Shown here: positions 4,132 through 52,672 of the stretch, in pieces
Layout: every line of letters starts with the position of its first letter
Numbering within the stretch: the stretch's first letter is position 1
Assembly: GCA_022795075.1 (NCBI GenBank)
Contig: JAAWGB010000001.1
Coordinates: forward strand, 16,383 to 80,382
DNA from: Clostridia bacterium
GTDB lineage: Bacteria > Bacillota > Clostridia > TANB77 > CAG-508
Direction of reading: 5' to 3'
DNA length: 64,000 nt
Program-made: the position numbers and the translations under genes
The notes under the pieces: model-generated
The model's database searches: none
Told to the model about the DNA's origin: nothing
What the model saw: the letters and a program-made list of their open reading frames with translations, nothing else

Positions 4132-4447
4132 TTATATATGGTTCATTTACATATTTAGTAGTAATATGAAAAAGAAACGAAAAAATCTGTCATATCAAGA
4201 AATAATAGTTTAAATTATAAAGACATAGATGAAGTAAAACAAATTGAAAGTAAAGATGCTGATAATAAAATGGAAAATAATATGAATATCAACTGGTAAA
4301 GTCTGATTTTAGCAAAACCATCTGAAAACCTTGAAAAATAAGCAGTTTTTTTAAATAGCTTTTTACATATTTTAATAAAAAATGAGGTGAAAGAGGATAA
4401 AAAATAAAATTATTGAAGTTCAAGATATAAATATAAATGTAACAAAT

Positions 4448-5788
4448 ATGAACGAAAAGGATTATATTTGTATTTCTGATATTGCAAAAGTCAAAAGTGA
4501 TAAATCCCGAGTAGCTGTTGTTATAAGAAATTGGTTGCGTAATAGAAGTACATTAGATTTTTTAACTGCTTGGGAGGAATTGTACAATCCAAATTTTAAA
4601 GTGTTCGAATCTGAACACTTTAGAAAGCAAGTAGGCTTATTAACTTTTACACCAAGTGTTACACAATGGTGTGAGAAGACAAATGCAATTGGTATGTATT
4701 CCAAATTAGGTAAATATGGTGGAACTTATGCACATAAAGATATTGCATTTGGATTTGCATCAGCAATTAGCCCTGTTTTTAAATTATATTTAATAAAAGA
4801 ATTTGAGAGATTAAAAGATTTAGAAAATAAAAACAGAGAATGGGATGTAAAGAGAATTTTAACAAAAAATAATTATTTAATACATACTGATGCAATTAAA
4901 AATTACATATTACCAGATAATGATTTTTATAAAAATAGAGAATGGTTGAAATATGCTGAAGAAACAGATATCTTAAATGTTGTCATTTTTAATACGACTG
5001 AAAAAAAGTGGAGAGAACTTAATTCTGATTTAGCAAAAAATTCTAATGTTAGAGATTATGCAACAATTAATGAACTAACAGTATTATCAAATTTAGAATC
5101 GCATAATGCAGAATTGATTAAAGAAGGAAAAAGTAAGGAAGAAAGATTTGAGATATTAAGTAAAATTGCTAAATATGAGCTAGAGATACTTAACAATTCA
5201 GAGAAAATAAAGTTGTTAGGAAGTAAAAATAATGTATTATTAATTCATGGATTTAATGGAATACCAAAAATATTTAATTATTTCAAAAAAGAATTAGAAA
5301 ATAAAGGTTATAATGTGATTTTACCAAATTTTCCACTAAGAGAAGAGATAGAAATAGAAGGGTATTTTGAAGTATTTAATAAATATAAAGGGATATTTAA
5401 TGATAATCTAATTGTAATTGCACATTCAATAGGAAATCCAATGTTTATAAAATATATATCCAAAAATAATTATAAGATTGGAAAATATGTTAGTTTAGCT
5501 GGATTTTCGGAAGCATATTATAATGAAGGAAAAGATGATTTGAATGAAAAAGTTAAATTAACAGTATTAACTGATAAGGAAAAAAAAGATGCAATCAGAC
5601 AAATTAATGAAAAATACTCAATATATAGCGATGATGACCATATAGTGCCTTTTAATTTATTAGAAAAATATTGTAGAGATATTGAATCAAAGCCTATACT
5701 GATAAAGAGTATTGGACATATGGGAAAAAAGAGTGGATTAGAAACGTTACCAGAAGTAATAGATTTAATTGATAATAATAGCTTATGA
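4448..5788 (+). CDS. KilA-N (APSES-type DNA-binding) domain fused to a serine-hydrolase/YdeN-like alpha/beta-hydrolase domain
   Basis: N-terminal residues 1-130 (ISDIAK...NWLRNRSTLDFLTAWEELYNP) are a KilA-N domain. C-terminal residues 260-446 (LLIHGFNG...IAHSIGNP...DDDHIVP) are an alpha/beta-hydrolase of the Ser_hydrolase type. Confidence 0.6.
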   Translation: MNEKDYICISDIAKVKSDKSRVAVVIRNWLRNRSTLDFLTAWEELYNPNFKVFESEHFRKQVGLLTFTPSVTQWCEKTNAIGMYSKLGKYGGTYAHKDIAFGFASAISPVFKLYLIKEFERLKDLENKNREWDVKRILTKNNYLIHTDAIKNYILPDNDFYKNREWLKYAEETDILNVVIFNTTEKKWRELNSDLAKNSNVRDYATINELTVLSNLESHNAELIKEGKSKEERFEILSKIAKYELEILNNSEKIKLLGSKNNVLLIHGFNGIPKIFNYFKKELENKGYNVILPNFPLREEIEIEGYFEVFNKYKGIFNDNLIVIAHSIGNPMFIKYISKNNYKIGKYVSLAGFSEAYYNEGKDDLNEKVKLTVLTDKEKKDAIRQINEKYSIYSDDDHIVPFNLLEKYCRDIESKPILIKSIGHMGKKSGLETLPEVIDLIDNNSL

Positions 5789-5818: not shown

Positions 5819-6736
5819 ATGAATAATAACGAAGAAAAGTTACCAAAAGTCAATATCAACTGGTATCCTGGACATATGGCAAAAACAAGAAGACAAATAG
5901 AAGAAGATTTAAAAATAATAGATGTAGTAATCGAATTGTTAGATGCACGAATACCAATATCTAGTCAAAATCCTAATATAGCTAATATTATCAAGAAAAA
6001 GAAAAAAATTGTGGTATTGAATAAATGTGATTTAGCAGATGAAAAGCAAAATCAGTTGTGGATACAATATTTTGAAAAAAAGGGAATCATAGCAGTATTA
6101 ACAGACTCAAATTCTGGAAAAGGAATTGACCAATGTATTAGAAAAATAGAAAGTATGATGAATACAGATATGCAATTACAAGCTAGTAAAGGAAGAACAG
6201 GAAGAAAGATAAGAGCAATGATATTAGGAATTCCTAATGTAGGAAAATCTTCTTTTATTAATCGAATTTCAAAAAGAACAACAGCTGGAGTAGGAAATAA
6301 GCCAGGAGTAACCAAACAAAAGCAATGGATAAGAATTAATGACAAAATAGAACTGTTAGATACACCAGGAGTATTATGGCCAAAATTTGAAAGTGAGGAA
6401 GTAGCACTAAATTTAGCCTTTACAGGAACCATCAAGGAAGATATATTAGAAAGAGTAGATATTGCTTATTATCTAACTAAATTTTTAATTGAAAATAATC
6501 GAACCCTATTATGTGAAAGATATAAAATAACCGAAGAATTTATAACAAAAAAGATGTCACAACAACAACTAGAAAATGAGAATATTTATGAAATAATGCT
6601 TGAAATAGGAAAGAAAAGAGGATGTATTATTTCTGGCGGAAATATAGATGAAGAGAAGACAGCAAGAATTTTATTAGATGAATTTAAAAATGGAGTAATT
6701 GGAAAAATAACAATAGAATCACCAATTAACAGATAA
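5819..6736 (+). CDS. rbgA: Ribosome biogenesis GTPase A (YlqF)
   Basis: Signature WYPGHMAK plus the G motifs DARIP, NKCDL and GIPNVGKSS. The ATG at 5819 is preferred over the GTG at 5810 because of the RBS aaggaag. Confidence 0.85.
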   Translation: MNNNEEKLPKVNINWYPGHMAKTRRQIEEDLKIIDVVIELLDARIPISSQNPNIANIIKKKKKIVVLNKCDLADEKQNQLWIQYFEKKGIIAVLTDSNSGKGIDQCIRKIESMMNTDMQLQASKGRTGRKIRAMILGIPNVGKSSFINRISKRTTAGVGNKPGVTKQKQWIRINDKIELLDTPGVLWPKFESEEVALNLAFTGTIKEDILERVDIAYYLTKFLIENNRTLLCERYKITEEFITKKMSQQQLENENIYEIMLEIGKKRGCIISGGNIDEEKTARILLDEFKNGVIGKITIESPINR

Positions 6737-6759: not shown

Positions 6760-7290
6760 ATGGAAGAATGGATAAATTTTAATAGACCAGAAGAGGAAGT
6801 TAATTTACTATCTCCACTTACATGGGCATATGTTGGAGATTGTGTATATGATTTATATATAAGAACGAAATTAGTCAATCAAACAAACTTAAAACCGCAT
6901 AAATTGCATATTGAAACAATAAAATATGTCAAAGCACGAAGTCAAGCAAAAATTCTTGAAACAATACAGGAGCAATTAACAGAAGAAGAAAAAAATATCG
7001 TAAGACGTGGCAGAAATGCCGAAAGTCATCATTTGCCTAAAAATTCAAATGTTCAAGAATATAAATATGCTACAGCTTTTGAGGCTTTAATTGGCTATTT
7101 ATATTTAACCAAAAAATCAAAAAGATTAAAAGAGATTTTAAATTTTGTAGGGGACAATTGGGGACGGTTCTTGATTGCTCCTTTTTTTGTGTGTAAACTG
7201 GCACTTGGAATTTTCCTTCCCTTAGCTTGGGGAGATGCTTGCAACTTTAAGGGTATAGTAATTTTAAAACTTAGATTCGCTTCAAGCTAA
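6760..7290 (+). CDS. mrnC: Mini-ribonuclease 3 (Mini-III), with the ORF running on into a repeat arm
   Basis: LTWAYVGDCVYDLYIR and EALIGYLYL are Mini-III motifs. The last ~45 codons (from ~7150) lie inside the foldback-repeat arm, so the native C-terminus was probably altered. Confidence 0.75.
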   Translation: MEEWINFNRPEEEVNLLSPLTWAYVGDCVYDLYIRTKLVNQTNLKPHKLHIETIKYVKARSQAKILETIQEQLTEEEKNIVRRGRNAESHHLPKNSNVQEYKYATAFEALIGYLYLTKKSKRLKEILNFVGDNWGRFLIAPFFVCKLALGIFLPLAWGDACNFKGIVILKLRFASS

Positions 7291-7520
7291 TTTTCGAAAA
7301 ACTTCTAAATTTATTTTATGGCACCCTTTCAAAACAAGTTTTGAACATTTTCCATAAAATAAATTAAGAATTTTTATCTCAATTACTTTCGATTCATCTA
7401 AGTTTTAAAATTACTATACCCTTAAAGTTGCAAGCATCTCCCCAAGCTAAGGGAAGGAAAATTCCAAGTGCCAGTTTACACACAAAAAAAGGGGCAATCA
7501 AGAACCGTCCCCAATTGTCC
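7152..7520 (+). repeat. Palindromic foldback repeat, copy 1 (arms 7152-7277 and 7396-7520; core ~7278-7395)
   Basis: The ~126-bp arms are inverted copies of each other with a single mismatch. The core is shared with the copies at 10.7, 33.8 and 52.9 kb. Confidence 0.85.
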
Positions 7521-7584: not shown

Positions 7585-7659
7585 GGCCCCTTGGTCAAGC
7601 GGTTAAGACGCCACCCTCTCAAGGTGGAATCATGGGTTCGATTCCCGTAGGGGTCACCA
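7585..7659 (+). tRNA. tRNA-Glu (anticodon CTC)
   Basis: Cloverleaf GGCCCCT...GGGGTCACCA with encoded CCA. The anticodon loop is CTCTCAA. Confidence 0.85.
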
Positions 7660-17939: not shown

Positions 17940-18566
17940 ATGGCTTATTCAGAAGAAATAAAAGAGGAAGTAAAGAAAAGGCTAGCTAAAGGAGAAAAAC
18001 CAAAACAAATTAGTGAACAAACAGGAGTTAGTGTACCAACTATTTATAATTGGAAAAGACAATTTGAGCAATTCAATCAAGAATCAATAGAGAAATGTGA
18101 AGAAGAGAAAATAAGTAAGATGCAAGAGAAAGTAATAACAGAAGATAAACAAGTTCAACAATATTGTATAACTGCTACAGAAAAAGAACAAGAGGAAAAC
18201 AAGCAAAGTATTGGAAAACAAGAAAATAATACTAATTCCCAGTTTCAAAATGAGAAAAAGAATTTTAAAGAAAGAATACGAGTAGAACAAAATACAAGTA
18301 ATATAGAAAATAGTCGAGATAACATGAAAAAAATTTCAAATCGCTATTTGGGAATAATGGATTTTTTATTAGAAAAGAGAAATGACATTTATGCAAAAAT
18401 GCAATCAGAGAATTATAACATCCAAAAAGAAGGAATTTCGCAATGGGATTTGATGGAAGGTTTAATAGAAAAGGTTAACAAAAACAAAGATGATAAACAA
18501 TGTATCAATCAATTATATGAAAAAATTTTACAATTGAAAGAAAAGGAAAATGGAATGAATCGATAA
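17940..18566 (+). CDS. HTH-domain protein. The N-terminus resembles the IS3-type transposase OrfA HTH; the remainder is Gln/Asn/Glu-rich.
   Basis: YSEEIKEEVKKRLAKGEKPKQISEQTGVSVPTIYNWKRQ resembles the HTH_Tnp_1 domain. There is no transposase catalytic domain. Confidence 0.45.
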   Translation: MAYSEEIKEEVKKRLAKGEKPKQISEQTGVSVPTIYNWKRQFEQFNQESIEKCEEEKISKMQEKVITEDKQVQQYCITATEKEQEENKQSIGKQENNTNSQFQNEKKNFKERIRVEQNTSNIENSRDNMKKISNRYLGIMDFLLEKRNDIYAKMQSENYNIQKEGISQWDLMEGLIEKVNKNKDDKQCINQLYEKILQLKEKENGMNR

Positions 18567-18644
18567 AATTAAAAAAAAATCTAGACAAGGTAAAAAATAT
18601 GTGCTAATATATAGAAGTACATATTTTTTGTGCTTTTAATATTT

Positions 18645-18731
18645 GCCGGTGTGCTGGAATTGGTAGACGGGGCAGACTCAAAATCTGTTGTCAGCAATGG
18701 CGTGTGGGTTCGAGTCCCACCACCGGCACCA
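18645..18731 (+). tRNA. tRNA-Leu (anticodon CAA)
   Basis: 87 nt with a long variable arm. Anticodon loop is CTCAAAA, and the 3' end is ACCA. Confidence 0.85.
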
Positions 18732-18750
18732 ATTGTAAATTATTGCAGAT

Positions 18751-20234
18751 TTATCTTTCTAAATTTATAATTTTAGTTGCCACTTTTTCAATAAATGTTT
18801 CATCGTGTTCTACAAAAATAAGAGTAGGTTTGTAATTTAAAATAGTATCTTCTATCTGTATTCTTGTTAATATATCAATATAATTCAAAGGCTCATCCCA
18901 TATATAAATATTGGCTTGTTCTGATATGCTTTTTGCAATTAAAACCTTTTTCTTTTGACCTTCGCTCATATCTTGTATATAGGTATCAAAATCTAATTTA
19001 GAGAATCCCATTTTTGTTAACATTGCTTTAAATATGCTTTCATCTATTTTATTATCTTCAGCAAAAGTTTTTAAATTTCCTTTCAAATTTTCTGTATTTT
19101 GTGATACATAAGAGATTTTCAAATCATTTGCTATTTTAAATTCTCCATTATATTGTATTTCTTTTTCTATAATAAGTTTTAGTATACTTGATTTTCCAAT
19201 TCCATTTTTTCCAATTATTGCAACTCTATCTTCATTATTTACTTCAAATGAAATAGGCTTAAATAGTAGTTGTTCATTGCACTTTATCTGAAATTTATTT
19301 ATTAAAACTAATGGATTTTTATTATTTTTTAAAGGAATGATTTTTAAATCTTTATTTCTATCTATATTTTTTAATAAATTAGCTTTTTTATCGATTGCTT
19401 TTTGAGTTCTTTGTTCCATAACTTTTGAACTTTTCATCATTTTAGTAGCCTTATGTCCTACATATCCTTTGTCTATTGTAGTTTCTGAATTGTATTTTTT
19501 ACTTTTTCTTTTTTCTGCTTCATTTGACCATTTTGCAGAATTTTTGGAGGCAACTTCAAGCCTATTTATATCTTTTTGTAACTTTTTATTTGTTATTTTT
19601 TCAAAATTATCTTGCTTATCCTTATTTTCTTTCCAAGATGAAAAATTTCCTTGCTTAATTTCAATATTAGTATTATTTATAGCAATTATATGATTTACAA
19701 CCTTATCTAAAAAAAATCTATCGTGGGAGACGACTATAAAACCATTTTTCTTTTTTAAATAACTAACCAAAGTATTTCTTGTTTCAATATCCAAATGATT
19801 GGTTGGCTCATCTATAAGTAAAAAATTGTTATCTTTTAAAAATAGACTTATTAAAAGTATCTTTATTTGCTCTCCACCACTTAATAAATTAAAATTTCTA
19901 TATAATATTTCTGTATTGATATCTAGTAAATTTAATTCTTTTATAATTTTCCAATCTTCAATATTTGGAGCAATTTCTTTTACTATTTTTATTGACATTC
20001 TATTTTTGTTTGTTACTTCAAAAGGAAAATAATCAACATCAACATTTTTCGATATTGTGCCTTTATATTCATATTTTCCTTGCAATAAATTTAAGAATGT
20101 AGTTTTCCTTTACCATTTCTACCAATTAACCCTAATTTCCAATCAGTATCGATATTAAATGATACATCTTCAAATATATTGTTATAACTTCCATCATATC
20201 CGAAAGTTAAATTATTTACACTTATTAAAGACAT
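18751..20234 (-). pseudogene. ABC-F family ATPase (ARE/Lsa-like, two NBDs with a linker), frameshifted in the first Walker A motif
   Basis: The ATG at 20234 has a GGAGG RBS. MSLISVNNLTFGY...GLIGRNGKGK then drops out of frame at ~20103 (one A missing in ggaaaa[a]ct) and resumes as TTFLNLLQGKYEY. Two LSGGE/MSEGQ signatures are present. Confidence 0.7.
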
Positions 20235-51845: not shown

Positions 51846-52672
51846 TACAATTGACAAATATTGCAATCACTACATAAATTAACTTTATTTTCAAATACTA
51901 ATTGTAAAGTATTAATAAATTCATCCATGTAATCATCAACTAGATGAATATAAATCTTTTTGGGTAGTAAAGTGAGTAATGTATTTAGGATATAATCATT
52001 AGTAGAAAAAGTAATATCACTTAGATATTTAGCTTTAAAAATATCATCATTTACTACTATCAAATTTTTATTCTCATCTAATAAAAACGATTCTGAAGAC
52101 GAAAACACAATATGCACTAATTCACAACCATAATCTTGTGAATTAATATACAATTTTAATAAAGAGATAAATTCCAAATACTCTTTTTCTATAACAAAAT
52201 GATTAACAGCATCTGTAACAATTGTGTCAAGAAAAGAAGAATAACTTTTTAACCTAAAATTAACAAAGCCATTTAATACAATTGACTTATGAACTTGCAA
52301 AAATTGATAAAAAACGTTATATAACATTTTAAACTTTTTATCAAAAAGATTTGAAAAATCATCAGCCATAATATCAAAGCAAGTTGCTAAAATTTTATTT
52401 CTTTCAATTGTATCAAAATAAAAATAATTTTGTAATATCAAGCGTTTTAGCAAATCTTCTTCTAGTTCGTCAATTACTAAAAAAGCTAAAATAGATGAGA
52501 CTTTAGACAAAAAAAGAGAATCGTTGTTACCCCAATAATGAATGATAACATTTTTATAAGCTTTAAATTCGTTTTCAGAAAAACAAATATTTTCTAATTC
52601 TAAGTTTTGAAATTCATTTAGTAGATATTTTATTAAATCAGAATTATTTGTCTTTATACATAGTGATCTCAT
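51809..52672 (-). CDS. Putative sporulation protein YtxC-like
   Basis: Size, composition and motif pattern resemble the YtxC family. Weak call. Confidence 0.4.
   Translation of the reverse strand: MRSLCIKTNNSDLIKYLLNEFQNLELENICFSENEFKAYKNVIIHYWGNNDSLFLSKVSSILAFLVIDELEEDLLKRLILQNYFYFDTIERNKILATCFDIMADDFSNLFDKKFKMLYNVFYQFLQVHKSIVLNGFVNFRLKSYSSFLDTIVTDAVNHFVIEKEYLEFISLLKLYINSQDYGCELVHIVFSSSESFLLDENKNLIVVNDDIFKAKYLSDITFSTNDYILNTLLTLLPKKIYIHLVDDYMDEFINTLQLVFENKVNLCSDCNICQLYKKTKIPHSEHS

What the first reader, a model, noticed from the sequence alone, without database searches (positions are those of the whole stretch)
4448..5788. KilA-N DNA-binding domain fused to a serine alpha/beta-hydrolase
The N-terminal ~130 aa are a clear KilA-N/APSES-type domain, typical of phage and conjugative-element proteins. 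The C-terminal ~190 aa are a YdeN/RBBP9-like serine hydrolase (LLIHGFNG, AHSIGNP, DDDHIVP). A coiled-coil linker joins the two. KilA-N is usually fused to nucleases, ANT/Bro domains or nothing at all. A hydrolase partner is unusual. It hints at a DNA-tethered esterase/lipase-like effector or a defence- or anti-defence-related protein.
Basis: partly seen in the sequence, partly recalled or inferred. Interest (0 to 1): 0.55.

Follow-up and report, generated by a model that had tools for sequence, protein, structure and literature searches.

The report
KilA-N protein fused to serine hydrolase
An uncultured gut bacterium has a real, selectively maintained gene that joins a mobile-element DNA-binding protein (an untested candidate phage-defence gene) directly to a small serine hydrolase. 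The combination is rare, limited to about five related species, and its function is unknown.

Summary
The ORF at 4448..5788 is real, and both domain calls hold. Pfam gives KilA-N at 62 bits and Ser_hydrolase PF06821 at 33 bits. The hydrolase domain matches the YdeN structure 1UXO with TM 0.82, and the Ser-Asp-His triad is intact.

Two corrections apply:
- The "coiled-coil linker" is the conserved helical second half of a ~275-aa KilA-N family. PADLOC calls this family PDC-S22, an untested phage-defence candidate.
- The CDS probably starts 51 nt upstream, at a near-cognate ATA (4397) behind a strong ribosome-binding site.

The fusion is not an artefact. It is identical in nine independent assemblies and intact in five species-level lineages. 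dN/dS is 0.08-0.25 on all three parts. It arose once, at the exact point where KilA-N homologues stop being alike. That point is the edge of a variable gene slot upstream of rbgA, which also hosts serine-recombinase elements.

In sister species the same KilA-N gene is followed, overlapping its stop codon, by a separate and only 29%-identical PF06821 hydrolase. This hints at a functional pairing. No other KilA-N+hydrolase protein appeared among the best hits from 1.84 billion representatives, or in the phage and plasmid collections.

Verdict: a new domain architecture built from known parts. It is moderately interesting, and its mechanism is inferred only.

The parts
4360..4383 (+). Conserved upstream motif TTTTTACATATTTTAATAAAAA. 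It may be a promoter or leader element.
   Evidence: Near-identical sequence precedes the fusion genes in L009, L011, L029 and L039. Its function is inferred. The promoter scan was not above shuffles.
4384..4389 (+). Ribosome-binding site GAGGTG, 7 nt upstream of the conserved start position.
   Evidence: The same GAGGTG or GGAGGTG lies at the same spacing in nearly all homologues.
4397..4399 (+). Probable true start codon ATA (near-cognate). The CDS would be 4397..5788, 463 aa.
   Evidence: Across distinct homologue contexts this position holds ATG (21), TTG (4), GTG (3), ATC (2) or CTG (1). Including these 17 codons extends the KilA-N HMM match from position 14 to position 5 and raises the score to 65.7 bits. 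This is an inference, not shown.
4448..4450 (+). First ATG of the mechanical ORF. It corresponds to Ile19 of the homologues.
   Evidence: No Shine-Dalgarno-like sequence precedes it.
4397..4840 (+). KilA-N domain (aa 1-148 of the 463-aa protein).
   Evidence: Pfam PF04383 scores 65.7 bits on aa 10-140. Between fusion lineages dN/dS is 0.10-0.35. aa ~17-90 exists in two allelic types, and the window carries the type seen in standalone genes such as L016.
4841..5230 (+). Conserved helical C-terminal domain of the PDC-S22 / PHROG 2657 family (aa 149-278). This is not a linker.
   Evidence: It is covered by the PDC-S22 and phrog_2657 profiles. It has no Pfam family. pLDDT is 70-93 for aa 180-270. 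dN/dS is 0.07-0.2 between the more diverged lineage pairs; the near-identical pairs (dS about 0.05 or less) give higher, noisy ratios of 0.43-0.76.
5213..5236 (+). Fusion junction: ..K-L-L-G | S-K-N-N-V-L-L... The TTG at 5213 is a possible internal start.
   Evidence: The junction is identical in all five fusion lineages. KilA-N homologues diverge right after ..KLL. The codon AGT occupies the place of the standalone hydrolase's ATG. TTG is kept in all five fusions, against TTA in two standalone genes. Its use as a start is untested.
5231..5785 (+). YdeN/RBBP9-type alpha/beta serine hydrolase domain (aa 279-463).
   Evidence: Pfam PF06821. 1UXO sequence hit at E 2e-9. Foldseek gives 1uxo TM 0.82 and RBBP9 TM 0.70-0.76. 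dN/dS is 0.08-0.21.
5426..5428 (+). Catalytic nucleophile Ser344 (Ser327 in 446-aa numbering), in AHSIG.
   Evidence: It aligns with YdeN Ser71 (PMC7034887). AHSIG is present in 120 of 121 homologues.
5636..5638 (+). Catalytic acid Asp414, the last D of SDDDH.
   Evidence: It is the only Asp invariant in the S-x-x-D-H motif across 121 homologues, and it aligns with the YdeN DD motif.
5717..5719 (+). Catalytic His441, in IGHMG.
   Evidence: G-H-[MI] is present in all 121 homologues, and it aligns with the YdeN GGHF motif.
5819..6736 (+). rbgA/ylqF ribosome-biogenesis GTPase, 30 nt downstream and probably co-transcribed. It marks the fixed right edge of the variable slot.
   Evidence: No terminator-like site lies between the two genes. 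rbgA is downstream of all seven fusion loci, immediately downstream in six of them, and downstream of many standalone KilA-N genes. In L010 two small ORFs follow the fusion.

Best explanation
The gene encodes one translated three-part protein. The parts are a KilA-N DNA-binding domain, the conserved helical domain that always accompanies it in the PDC-S22 family, and a catalytically competent YdeN/RBBP9-type serine hydrolase joined with no linker.

Origin. The fusion arose once. It formed at the 3' edge of a highly conserved KilA-N gene that sits upstream of rbgA. The gene slot directly behind this KilA-N gene is variable, and its occupant usually overlaps or abuts the KilA-N stop codon. A deletion joined the KilA-N frame to the start codon of a hydrolase in that slot. 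Afterwards, recombination exchanged the N-terminal KilA-N segment in the window's lineage.

How it most likely works (inferred). The KilA-N module recognises DNA or a mobile-element or phage-associated target. The hydrolase acts as its attached enzymatic partner on a small ester or amide substrate. In sister species the same pairing is achieved by two overlapping genes. Expression is probably kept low by a near-cognate start codon.

Shown: the architecture, its integrity, purifying selection, single origin, rarity and context. Inferred: the start codon, functional coupling, and any defence role.
For: Domains.

Real and intact:
- The protein is on nine contigs, and the eight loci compared are 100% identical to the window.
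- The frame is open in seven loci representing five lineages.

Selection: NG86 dN/dS is 0.08-0.25 for most between-lineage comparisons of all three segments, rising to 0.35 for the window's swapped KilA-N segment. Near-identical pairs give noisy ratios. Two lineages that both lack a canonical start give 0.10 for the KilA-N domain.

The hydrolase cannot be made alone from an ATG. There is no in-frame ATG between aa 100 and the catalytic Ser.

Single origin at the cassette boundary: the junction DNA is identical in all fusions, and homologues diverge after ..KLL.

Variable slot behind KilA-N. Its occupants include:
- a PF06821 hydrolase
- an ASCH+APH kinase
- a SWIM protein
- DUF6870
- His_Phos_1, NUDIX and CYTH proteins
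- large serine recombinases

Second, independent pairing: a separate PF06821 hydrolase, 29% identical (E 1e-16), overlaps the KilA-N stop codon in 10 of 80 metagenome loci from at least five species. These include L074, the genome most like the window by RbgA identity.

Triad conserved in 120 of 121 homologues.

Mobile-element and defence association of the KilA-N module.
Against: - No experiment exists for PDC-S22 or for any bacterial PF06821 enzyme, so both halves have unknown biochemical roles.
- Both halves are abundant as standalone genes. Standalone copies of the window-type hydrolase show no KilA-N within 10 kb in 22 of 27 species-representative loci. Coupling is therefore not obligatory.
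- The slot's other occupants are a mixed bag of small enzymes, not typical toxic effectors. Only a few match defence models, and weakly.
- The window's start codon is ATA, which is rarely used. Translation of the full length is inferred from selection, not observed.
- The KilA-N domain was modelled poorly (pLDDT below 50), so no inter-domain geometry is available.
- dS estimates in a 28% GC genome are rough.
Confidence: 0.5

Rival explanations
1. Neutral "frozen accident". Two unrelated accessory genes that happened to be neighbours in a recombination hotspot were fused by a small deletion. Each half keeps its own independent function, and the physical link means nothing mechanistically.
For: - Both halves are common as standalone genes, and mostly not next to each other.
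- The slot behind KilA-N holds many unrelated genes.
- The hydrolase family also fuses with GNAT, NUDIX and membrane segments.
- The overlapping stop/start layout means that a one-base change can create a fusion.
- The fusion is confined to a small clade.
Against: - The same Pfam family (PF06821) occupies the slot twice independently, once fused and once as an overlapping separate gene.
- The fusion has been kept intact under purifying selection in five lineages whose flanking RbgA is only 54-75% identical to the window's.
- The fusion's dS against L011 (0.40) is less than half that of the flanking genes (0.84-1.02). This suggests it has been passed between lineages as a unit.
Confidence: 0.33
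2. The KilA-N module is not a defence protein. It is an accessory or regulatory DNA-binding factor of integrases, or an anchor or attachment gene for serine-recombinase elements. The hydrolase is simply cargo that landed at the attachment point.
For: - The KilA-N gene overlaps a large serine recombinase gene by 4 nt in the ~60%-identity group; 15 loci in that group carry a recombinase-family gene directly downstream.
- It is followed by a small recombinase in Photorhabdus pPAU1.
- It sits directly upstream of tyrosine integrases in phage EW and the Javan satellites.
- Serine-recombinase elements lie between KilA-N (or the hydrolase) and rbgA in L021 and L074.
- In L060/L061, KilA-N is joined in frame to a recombinase fragment.
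Against: - The window and most close relatives have no recombinase nearby.
- The KilA-N protein is far more conserved than the adjacent RbgA (dN 0.086 against 0.68, with saturated dS). That is unusual for a mere attachment target.
- PDC-S22 was defined from copies embedded in restriction, BREX and DISARM loci.
Confidence: 0.12
3. Decaying gene. Loss of the canonical start codon means that the KilA-N part is no longer translated. The ORF is then a pseudogene, or only a remnant that expresses the hydrolase from an internal start such as TTG 5213.
For: - Near-cognate codons (ATA, CTG, ATC) sit at the start position in 3 of 5 fusion lineages, against about 1 of 29 standalone contexts.
- P0002 has a 5-aa deletion in the helical domain.
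- TTG at aa 273 is conserved in all fusions.
Against: - No stop codon or frameshift occurs in any of seven loci.
- dN/dS is 0.10 for the KilA-N domain between L010 and L011, which both lack canonical starts.
- The strong ribosome-binding site is retained at the correct spacing.
- TTG 5213 has no clear Shine-Dalgarno sequence.
Confidence: 0.05

Closest known systems
PADLOC PDC-S22 (single-gene phage defence candidate) = PHROG 2657 'transcriptional regulator' = NCBI 'KilA-N domain-containing protein' of ~275 aa
   Same: aa 2-276 match the whole PDC-S22 profile (E 1.7e-107) and phrog_2657 (E 7e-48). Homologues at 42-63% identity occur in phages, satellites, plasmids and ICEs.
   Different: Family members are standalone ~275-aa proteins, and none seen carries a hydrolase. 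PDC-S22 itself is an untested guilt-by-embedding candidate. Here the gene sits in a chromosomal slot upstream of rbgA.
BstA (prophage-encoded abortive-infection protein, Owen et al. 2021)
   Same: [quoted passage not shown] It is encoded by a prophage.
   Different: No PADLOC model other than PDC-S22 matched at E up to 1. BstA is from Gram-negative bacteria, and its KilA-N similarity is detectable only by remote-homology methods. It has no hydrolase. This is an analogy only.
B. subtilis YdeN (PDB 1UXO) and human RBBP9 (PF06821 / DUF1234 serine hydrolases)
   Same: - Same fold (TM 0.82 and 0.70-0.76).
- Same length class (~185 aa).
- Same Ser-Asp-His triad positions.
   Different: Only 17-22% identity. 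The substrate of YdeN is unknown to me. RBBP9 is an aromatic aminopeptidase (PMC8866121). Whether this enzyme cleaves esters or amides is unknown. Neither has a DNA-binding partner.
Two-gene arrangement KilA-N + separate PF06821 hydrolase in sister species (e.g. L074 6001-6855 / 6848-7387)
   Same: It has the same KilA-N family and the same Pfam family of hydrolase with the triad kept. The order is the same and the position upstream of rbgA is the same. The stop and start codons overlap.
   Different: There are two polypeptides. The hydrolase is only 29% identical to the window's. A serine-recombinase element follows it.
Other fusions of this hydrolase family: GNAT+hydrolase (P0270), hydrolase+NUDIX (P0322), membrane segment+hydrolase (P0347)
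   Same: The hydrolase domain is the same, at 48-52% identity, joined end to end with another domain.
   Different: The partners are enzymes or membrane anchors, not a DNA-binding module. I assigned the partner domains from sequence motifs, not from a profile search.

Membership tests
KilA-N domain (Pfam PF04383) | Profile match above Pfam's gathering score over most of the domain. | tested here: met
   62.4 bits on the 446-aa ORF and 65.7 bits (HMM 5-105 of 107) on the 463-aa version, against a cut-off of 23.8.
KilA-N domain (Pfam PF04383) | DNA binding by the domain. | not testable with these tools
   The domain was modelled with pLDDT below 50. There is no solved homologue by sequence.
PADLOC PDC-S22 / PHROG 2657 | Full-length match to the family profile (KilA-N plus the helical C-domain). 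| tested here: met
   PDC-S22 at E 1.7e-107, profile 3-275 of 281. phrog_2657 at E 7.2e-48, profile 19-242 of 243.
PADLOC PDC-S22 / PHROG 2657 | Single-gene, standalone architecture of ~275 aa. | tested here: not met
   Here a 185-aa hydrolase is attached at the C-terminus.
PADLOC PDC-S22 / PHROG 2657 | Protection against phage. | not testable with these tools
   The source paper lists PDCs as untested candidates (10.1101/2024.01.29.577857).
YdeN-like serine hydrolase (Pfam PF06821) | Profile match above the gathering score. | tested here: met
   33.5 bits against a cut-off of 22. The match covers HMM 54-171, and the N-terminal part is picked up by Abhydrolase_1. The 1UXO alignment spans aa 262-442.
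YdeN-like serine hydrolase (Pfam PF06821) | Compact alpha/beta-hydrolase fold closest to YdeN/RBBP9. | tested here: met
   Foldseek's top hits are 1uxo (TM 0.82, rmsd 2.9 over 190 columns), then the RBBP9 entries. pLDDT is about 80-95 across most of the domain.
YdeN-like serine hydrolase (Pfam PF06821) | Ser-Asp-His catalytic triad. | tested here: met
   Ser344 aligns with YdeN Ser71. Asp414 and His441 lie in conserved motifs. The triad is conserved in 120 of 121 homologues. This is at sequence level only; geometry was not measured.
YdeN-like serine hydrolase (Pfam PF06821) | Hydrolytic activity and substrate. | not testable with these tools
RBBP9 is an aminopeptidase, and I know of no defined substrate for YdeN.
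BstA abortive-infection family | Sequence membership (profile match). | tested here: inconclusive
   No PADLOC family other than PDC-S22 matched at E up to 1. I did not verify that a BstA model is in that library, and I had no BstA sequence to compare.

The most novel reading that the evidence does not exclude
The PDC-S22 KilA-N protein is the constant recognition or adaptor subunit of a modular two-part system. Its second part is an interchangeable enzyme encoded in the overlapping 3' slot. Occupants seen there include PF06821 hydrolases, an ASCH-kinase, and SWIM, NUDIX and CYTH proteins.

On this reading, the window's fusion is a "Rosetta stone" showing that KilA-N and a serine hydrolase act as one physical unit. 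This could be a new kind of mobile-element defence or addiction module with a non-nuclease, non-NADase effector. The weak start codons in three fusion lineages would then reflect toxicity of the linked form.
Probability: 0.2. Interest if true: 0.7.

Novelty: new variant of a known kind. Interest (0 to 1): 0.45.

Why it matters
KilA-N proteins are among the commonest uncharacterised proteins of phages, satellites, plasmids and genomic islands. Only BstA has a tested function in bacteria.

A naturally occurring, selectively maintained fusion to an enzyme with a readable active site gives a handle on the family. The same pairing occurs as two overlapping genes in sister species. Together these suggest what KilA-N/PDC-S22 proteins work with, and they offer a simple mutational test (Ser344Ala).

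The comparative data also expose an unusual locus. An extremely conserved KilA-N gene is anchored next to the ribosome-biogenesis GTPase gene rbgA, and it borders a fast-changing gene slot used by serine-recombinase elements.

If the coupling is not functional, the case remains a tidy example of how overlapping stop/start junctions in hotspots create new multi-domain proteins.

Tried and rejected
1. Assembly artefact or chimera. Rejected: the protein is on nine contigs and the eight loci compared are identical to the window.
2. P0003 and P0004 (289 aa) as evidence of a decayed KilA-N half. Rejected: the frames are intact. The gene callers simply could not use the CTG and ATC starts.
3. A second KilA-N or hydrolase copy in the window. 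None found.
4. First mixed alignment, A1. The KilA-N sequences were misaligned onto the hydrolase, so it was discarded.
5. First AlphaFold run on A2. pLDDT was 45.9 and the model was unusable. The second run, on A4, gave a usable hydrolase and helical domain but not the KilA-N domain. No inter-domain inference was made.
6. Fold or sequence identification of the helical domain. There is no Pfam family and no PDB sequence homologue for the module profile. The Foldseek lists were filled with hydrolase hits.
7. NCBIfam gave no hit.
8. Rfam found only two tRNAs in the window.
9. The promoter and terminator scan was no better than shuffles.
10. Close relatives of either hydrolase type in IMG/VR. None found.
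11. A genome with the window-type hydrolase as a separate gene directly after KilA-N. Not found: the closest standalone copy (86% identical, L055) follows an ABC-ATPase gene.
12. The literature holds nothing on a KilA-N+hydrolase protein. The only paper mentioning PDC-S22 is a survey.
13. A profile scan of metagenomes with alignment A3 failed for lack of conserved stretches, so a single protein was used instead.
Full report
**1. The observation**

The ORF listing finds a 446-aa ORF at 4448..5788 on the + strand.
- Pfam scores its N-terminus as KilA-N (PF04383, 62.4 bits against a cut-off of 23.8, aa 3-123).
- Pfam scores its C-terminus as Ser_hydrolase (PF06821, 33.5 bits against 22, aa 318-442). 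Abhydrolase_1 picks up the first strand at aa 262-296.
- The only significant solved relative by sequence is B. subtilis YdeN (1UXO, E 2e-9).
- The protein occurs on nine contigs from different sequencing runs and one NCBI MAG (GCA_949037765.1), always in the same gene order. The eight of these loci that I compared with the window are 100% identical in DNA over up to 7.2 kb.

So the fusion is in the sequence, at the stated coordinates, and it is not an assembly chimera.

**2. Two corrections to the description**

*The linker.* The stretch called a coiled-coil linker (aa ~130-260) is not a linker.
- PHROG 2657 (a 243-position profile) covers aa 2-260.
- PADLOC's PDC-S22 model (281 positions) covers aa 2-276 at E 1.7e-107.
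- Hundreds of standalone proteins of 275-295 aa are 79-89% identical to exactly this part. More distant ones, at 36-61% identity, keep the same length.
- In the better AlphaFold model this region is a confident helical domain (pLDDT 70-93 for aa 180-270). Its last helix ends four residues before the first hydrolase strand. It has no Pfam family and no solved sequence relative.

*The start.* The ORF's ATG at 4448 corresponds to Ile19 of the homologues and has no ribosome-binding site.
- Seventeen codons upstream, 7 nt after GAGGTG, the window has ATA (4397-4399). At that position distinct homologue contexts have ATG (21), TTG (4), GTG (3), ATC (2) or CTG (1).
- Including these codons extends the KilA-N match from HMM position 14 to position 5 and raises the score to 65.7 bits.
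- I therefore take the CDS to be 4397..5788 (463 aa). This is an inference.

**3. How widespread the fusion is, and whether it is alive**

- The first homology search returned only one other full-length fusion (P0002, 84% identity) and two 289-aa "hydrolases" carrying a piece of the helical domain (P0003, P0004).
- Reading their contigs showed that the whole KilA-N frame is open in those too. The gene callers had skipped it because the start is CTG (L011) or ATC (L010).
- A scan of GTDB species representatives with the hydrolase half added L028, L029, L030 and L039.
- In all there are seven loci from five species-level lineages, each with an intact frame and an identical junction. rbgA and mini-RNase III lie downstream in all seven, directly downstream in six; in L010 two small ORFs follow the fusion.
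- Nei-Gojobori dN/dS between lineages is mostly 0.10-0.35 for the KilA-N domain, 0.07-0.2 for the helical domain and 0.08-0.21 for the hydrolase. Near-identical pairs, with dS of about 0.05 or less, give noisy ratios of up to 0.76 for the helical domain.
- The KilA-N value is 0.10 between L010 and L011, which both lack a canonical start. The N-terminal domain is therefore evidently translated.
- The hydrolase cannot be made on its own from an ATG. No in-frame ATG lies between aa 100 and the catalytic serine.
- Ser344, Asp414 and His441 sit in motifs conserved in 120 of 121 homologues, and Ser344 aligns with YdeN Ser71.
- Foldseek places the domain closest to YdeN (TM 0.82) and then to human RBBP9. 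RBBP9 is now known to be an aromatic aminopeptidase (PMC8866121).

**4. Rarity**

A full HMMER search of 1.84 billion cluster representatives gave 6,543 hits. None of the best 150 matches both halves.
- The hydrolase family does fuse with other partners. From sequence motifs these appear to be GNAT, NUDIX and a membrane segment.
- The KilA-N module sometimes carries other C-terminal extensions.
- In the phage and plasmid collections the module is common at 42-63% identity, but no record covers 80% or more of the query.

**5. What the KilA-N module is**

- PDC-S22 is one of 145 phage defence candidates. They were proposed because copies are embedded inside BREX, DISARM or type I restriction loci, and they are explicitly untested (10.1101/2024.01.29.577857).
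- In Staphylococcus phage EW and in Streptococcus satellite phages, the homologue lies between the repressor and the integrase. Both flanking genes are on the same strand as it. From general knowledge of temperate phages, this is where lysogen-expressed exclusion genes usually sit.
- In Photorhabdus pPAU1 it is followed 8 nt later by a small recombinase. In a Streptococcus agalactiae conjugative element it lies next to the transfer genes.
- The one characterised bacterial protein of similar layout is BstA, a prophage abortive-infection protein with a KilA-N-like N-domain. No PADLOC model other than PDC-S22 matched here, so BstA is an analogy, not a family assignment.

**6. The locus**

In related uncultured gut Clostridia/Bacilli MAGs the standalone KilA-N gene sits upstream of rbgA.

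*Conservation.* The KilA-N gene is far more conserved than rbgA.
- KilA-N is 77-90% identical between genomes whose RbgA is 37-75% identical.
- For L013 against L014, KilA-N has dN 0.086 with dS 1.78, while RbgA has dN 0.68. This indicates strong long-term constraint, not just recent transfer.

*The variable slot.* A metagenome scan (80 loci) and my ORF analysis show that the gene directly 3' of KilA-N is variable and usually overlaps or abuts its stop codon. The occupants are:
- a PF06821 hydrolase
- an ASCH+APH kinase
- a SWIM protein
- DUF6870
- a 109-aa unknown protein
- His_Phos_1, NUDIX and CYTH proteins
- in the ~60%-identity group, a large serine recombinase overlapping by 4 nt

*Mobile elements.* Serine-recombinase elements lie between this region and rbgA in L021 and L074.

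*The window-type hydrolase as a standalone gene.* It occurs in such elements beside RhuM, Bro-N and Abi_2 genes. It also occurs directly upstream of rbgA without KilA-N, and elsewhere.

*The junction.* KilA-N homologues are alike up to ..EKIKLL and differ after it. The fusion junction (KLL-G|S-KNNVLLIHG) lies exactly there, and AGT occupies the place of the hydrolase's ATG. The fusion therefore formed at the cassette boundary, once.

*Later exchange.* The window's KilA-N segment aa ~17-90 is of a different allelic type from the other fusions. Nucleotide identity to them is 63-74% there and 86-98% downstream. It matches standalone L016 at 87-98% throughout.

*Age.* Against L011 the fusion has dS 0.40, while six flanking genes have 0.84-1.02. 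The gene therefore looks younger than its surroundings, which is consistent with transfer or recombination between lineages.

**7. Is the pairing meaningful?**

The strongest hint is a second, independent pairing.
- In 10 of the 80 loci, from at least five species, a separate 179-184-aa PF06821 hydrolase starts inside the last codons of the KilA-N gene. These include L074, whose RbgA is the most similar to the window's (76.5%).
- This hydrolase scores 77 bits on PF06821 and keeps the triad. It is only 29% identical to the window's (E 1e-16).
- Two distant members of one uncommon family occupy the same slot behind the same gene, one fused and one translationally coupled. This is what a functional partnership would look like.

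Against this, the slot also holds unrelated genes. In addition, 22 of 27 species-representative loci with the window-type hydrolase have no KilA-N within 10 kb.

I put functional coupling at about even odds and a neutral fusion at about one in three.

**8. Start codons**

Near-cognate codons (ATA, CTG, ATC) occupy the start position in three of five fusion lineages. The three codons differ, so these are three separate events. Among standalone contexts it is roughly one of 29. By my hand calculation, a hypergeometric tail on 34 contexts gives P of about 0.006, ignoring phylogeny.

With the ribosome-binding site retained and protein-level constraint intact, this looks like down-tuned translation rather than decay. 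A possible internal TTG start at 5213, kept in all five fusions, cannot be excluded.

**9. Verdict**

The object is a new domain architecture made of known parts, limited to a handful of uncultured gut species, and its mechanism is inferred only.

Its main value is as a lead into the function of the very common but uncharacterised PDC-S22 KilA-N family. It also points to an unusual hyper-conserved gene and variable slot next to rbgA.

Noticed in passing
window 4397-5230 compared with L013 7001-7843, L014 7001-7852, L016 5745-6602: The standalone KilA-N gene upstream of rbgA is far more conserved than rbgA itself. It is 77-90% identical where RbgA is 37-75% identical. For L013 against L014, KilA-N has dN 0.086 with dS 1.78 (dN/dS 0.05), while RbgA has dN 0.68. 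This is unexpected for a mobile-element-type protein.
   Followed up: partly
window 4445-4670 (aa ~17-90 of the KilA-N domain): This segment exists in two sharply different allelic types. The window and L016 carry one type. L009-L011, L039 and L074 carry the other. Nucleotide identity between the types is 63-74%, against 86-98% downstream. This indicates recombination and perhaps a specificity-determining region.
   Followed up: partly
L062-L141 (for example L067 6827-8101, L078 6827-7297, L074 6833-7387, L131 5100-6812): The gene immediately 3' of KilA-N usually overlaps or abuts its stop codon and is highly variable. Occupants are an ASCH+APH kinase, a SWIM protein, a PF06821 hydrolase, DUF6870, NUDIX, CYTH and His_Phos_1 proteins, or a large serine recombinase. 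The layout looks like a cassette slot.
   Followed up: partly
L060 1898-2524 and L061 8001-8627 (IMG/VR contigs): KilA-N aa 10-217 continues in frame into sequence that matches the middle of the L074 serine recombinase (..ARSHIEADMYFENIFPALNIRFIS..), about 5 kb upstream of rbgA. This may be a deletion or recombination product, or a misassembly.
   Followed up: no
L142 3010-4298 (Parabacteroides distasonis record NZ_OY725801.1): A 51%-identical KilA-N homologue lies directly after ybeY, another ribosome-maturation gene. This echoes the rbgA adjacency seen here and may be coincidence.
   Followed up: no
window 6760-7290: The mini-RNase III ORF is 176 aa here but 118-146 aa in related loci. It has a C-terminal extension (..GRFLIAPFFVCKLALGIFLPLAWGDACNFKGIVILKLRFASS) that runs toward the tRNA at 7585-7656.
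   Followed up: no
L009 3207-4101, L028 7198-8051, L029 10595-11483, L039 10661-11528: In several fusion-bearing MAGs or contigs the rbgA gene is split into two or three pieces. These may be frameshifts or assembly errors. In the window and in L011 it is intact.
   Followed up: no
L011 4215-7266: In one fusion-bearing relative, five extra accessory genes sit between the conserved membrane-protein gene and the fusion. They are dUTPase_2, HD, AAA_33 kinase, glyoxalase and DUF5680. The window has only 265 nt there, so the region upstream of KilA-N is also variable.
   Followed up: no
window 18001-20000 and 52001-54000: GC skew and AT skew drop to about zero or below in these two 2-kb bins, while the rest of the window is uniformly positive. 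These are probably minus-strand genes or inserted DNA.
   Followed up: no
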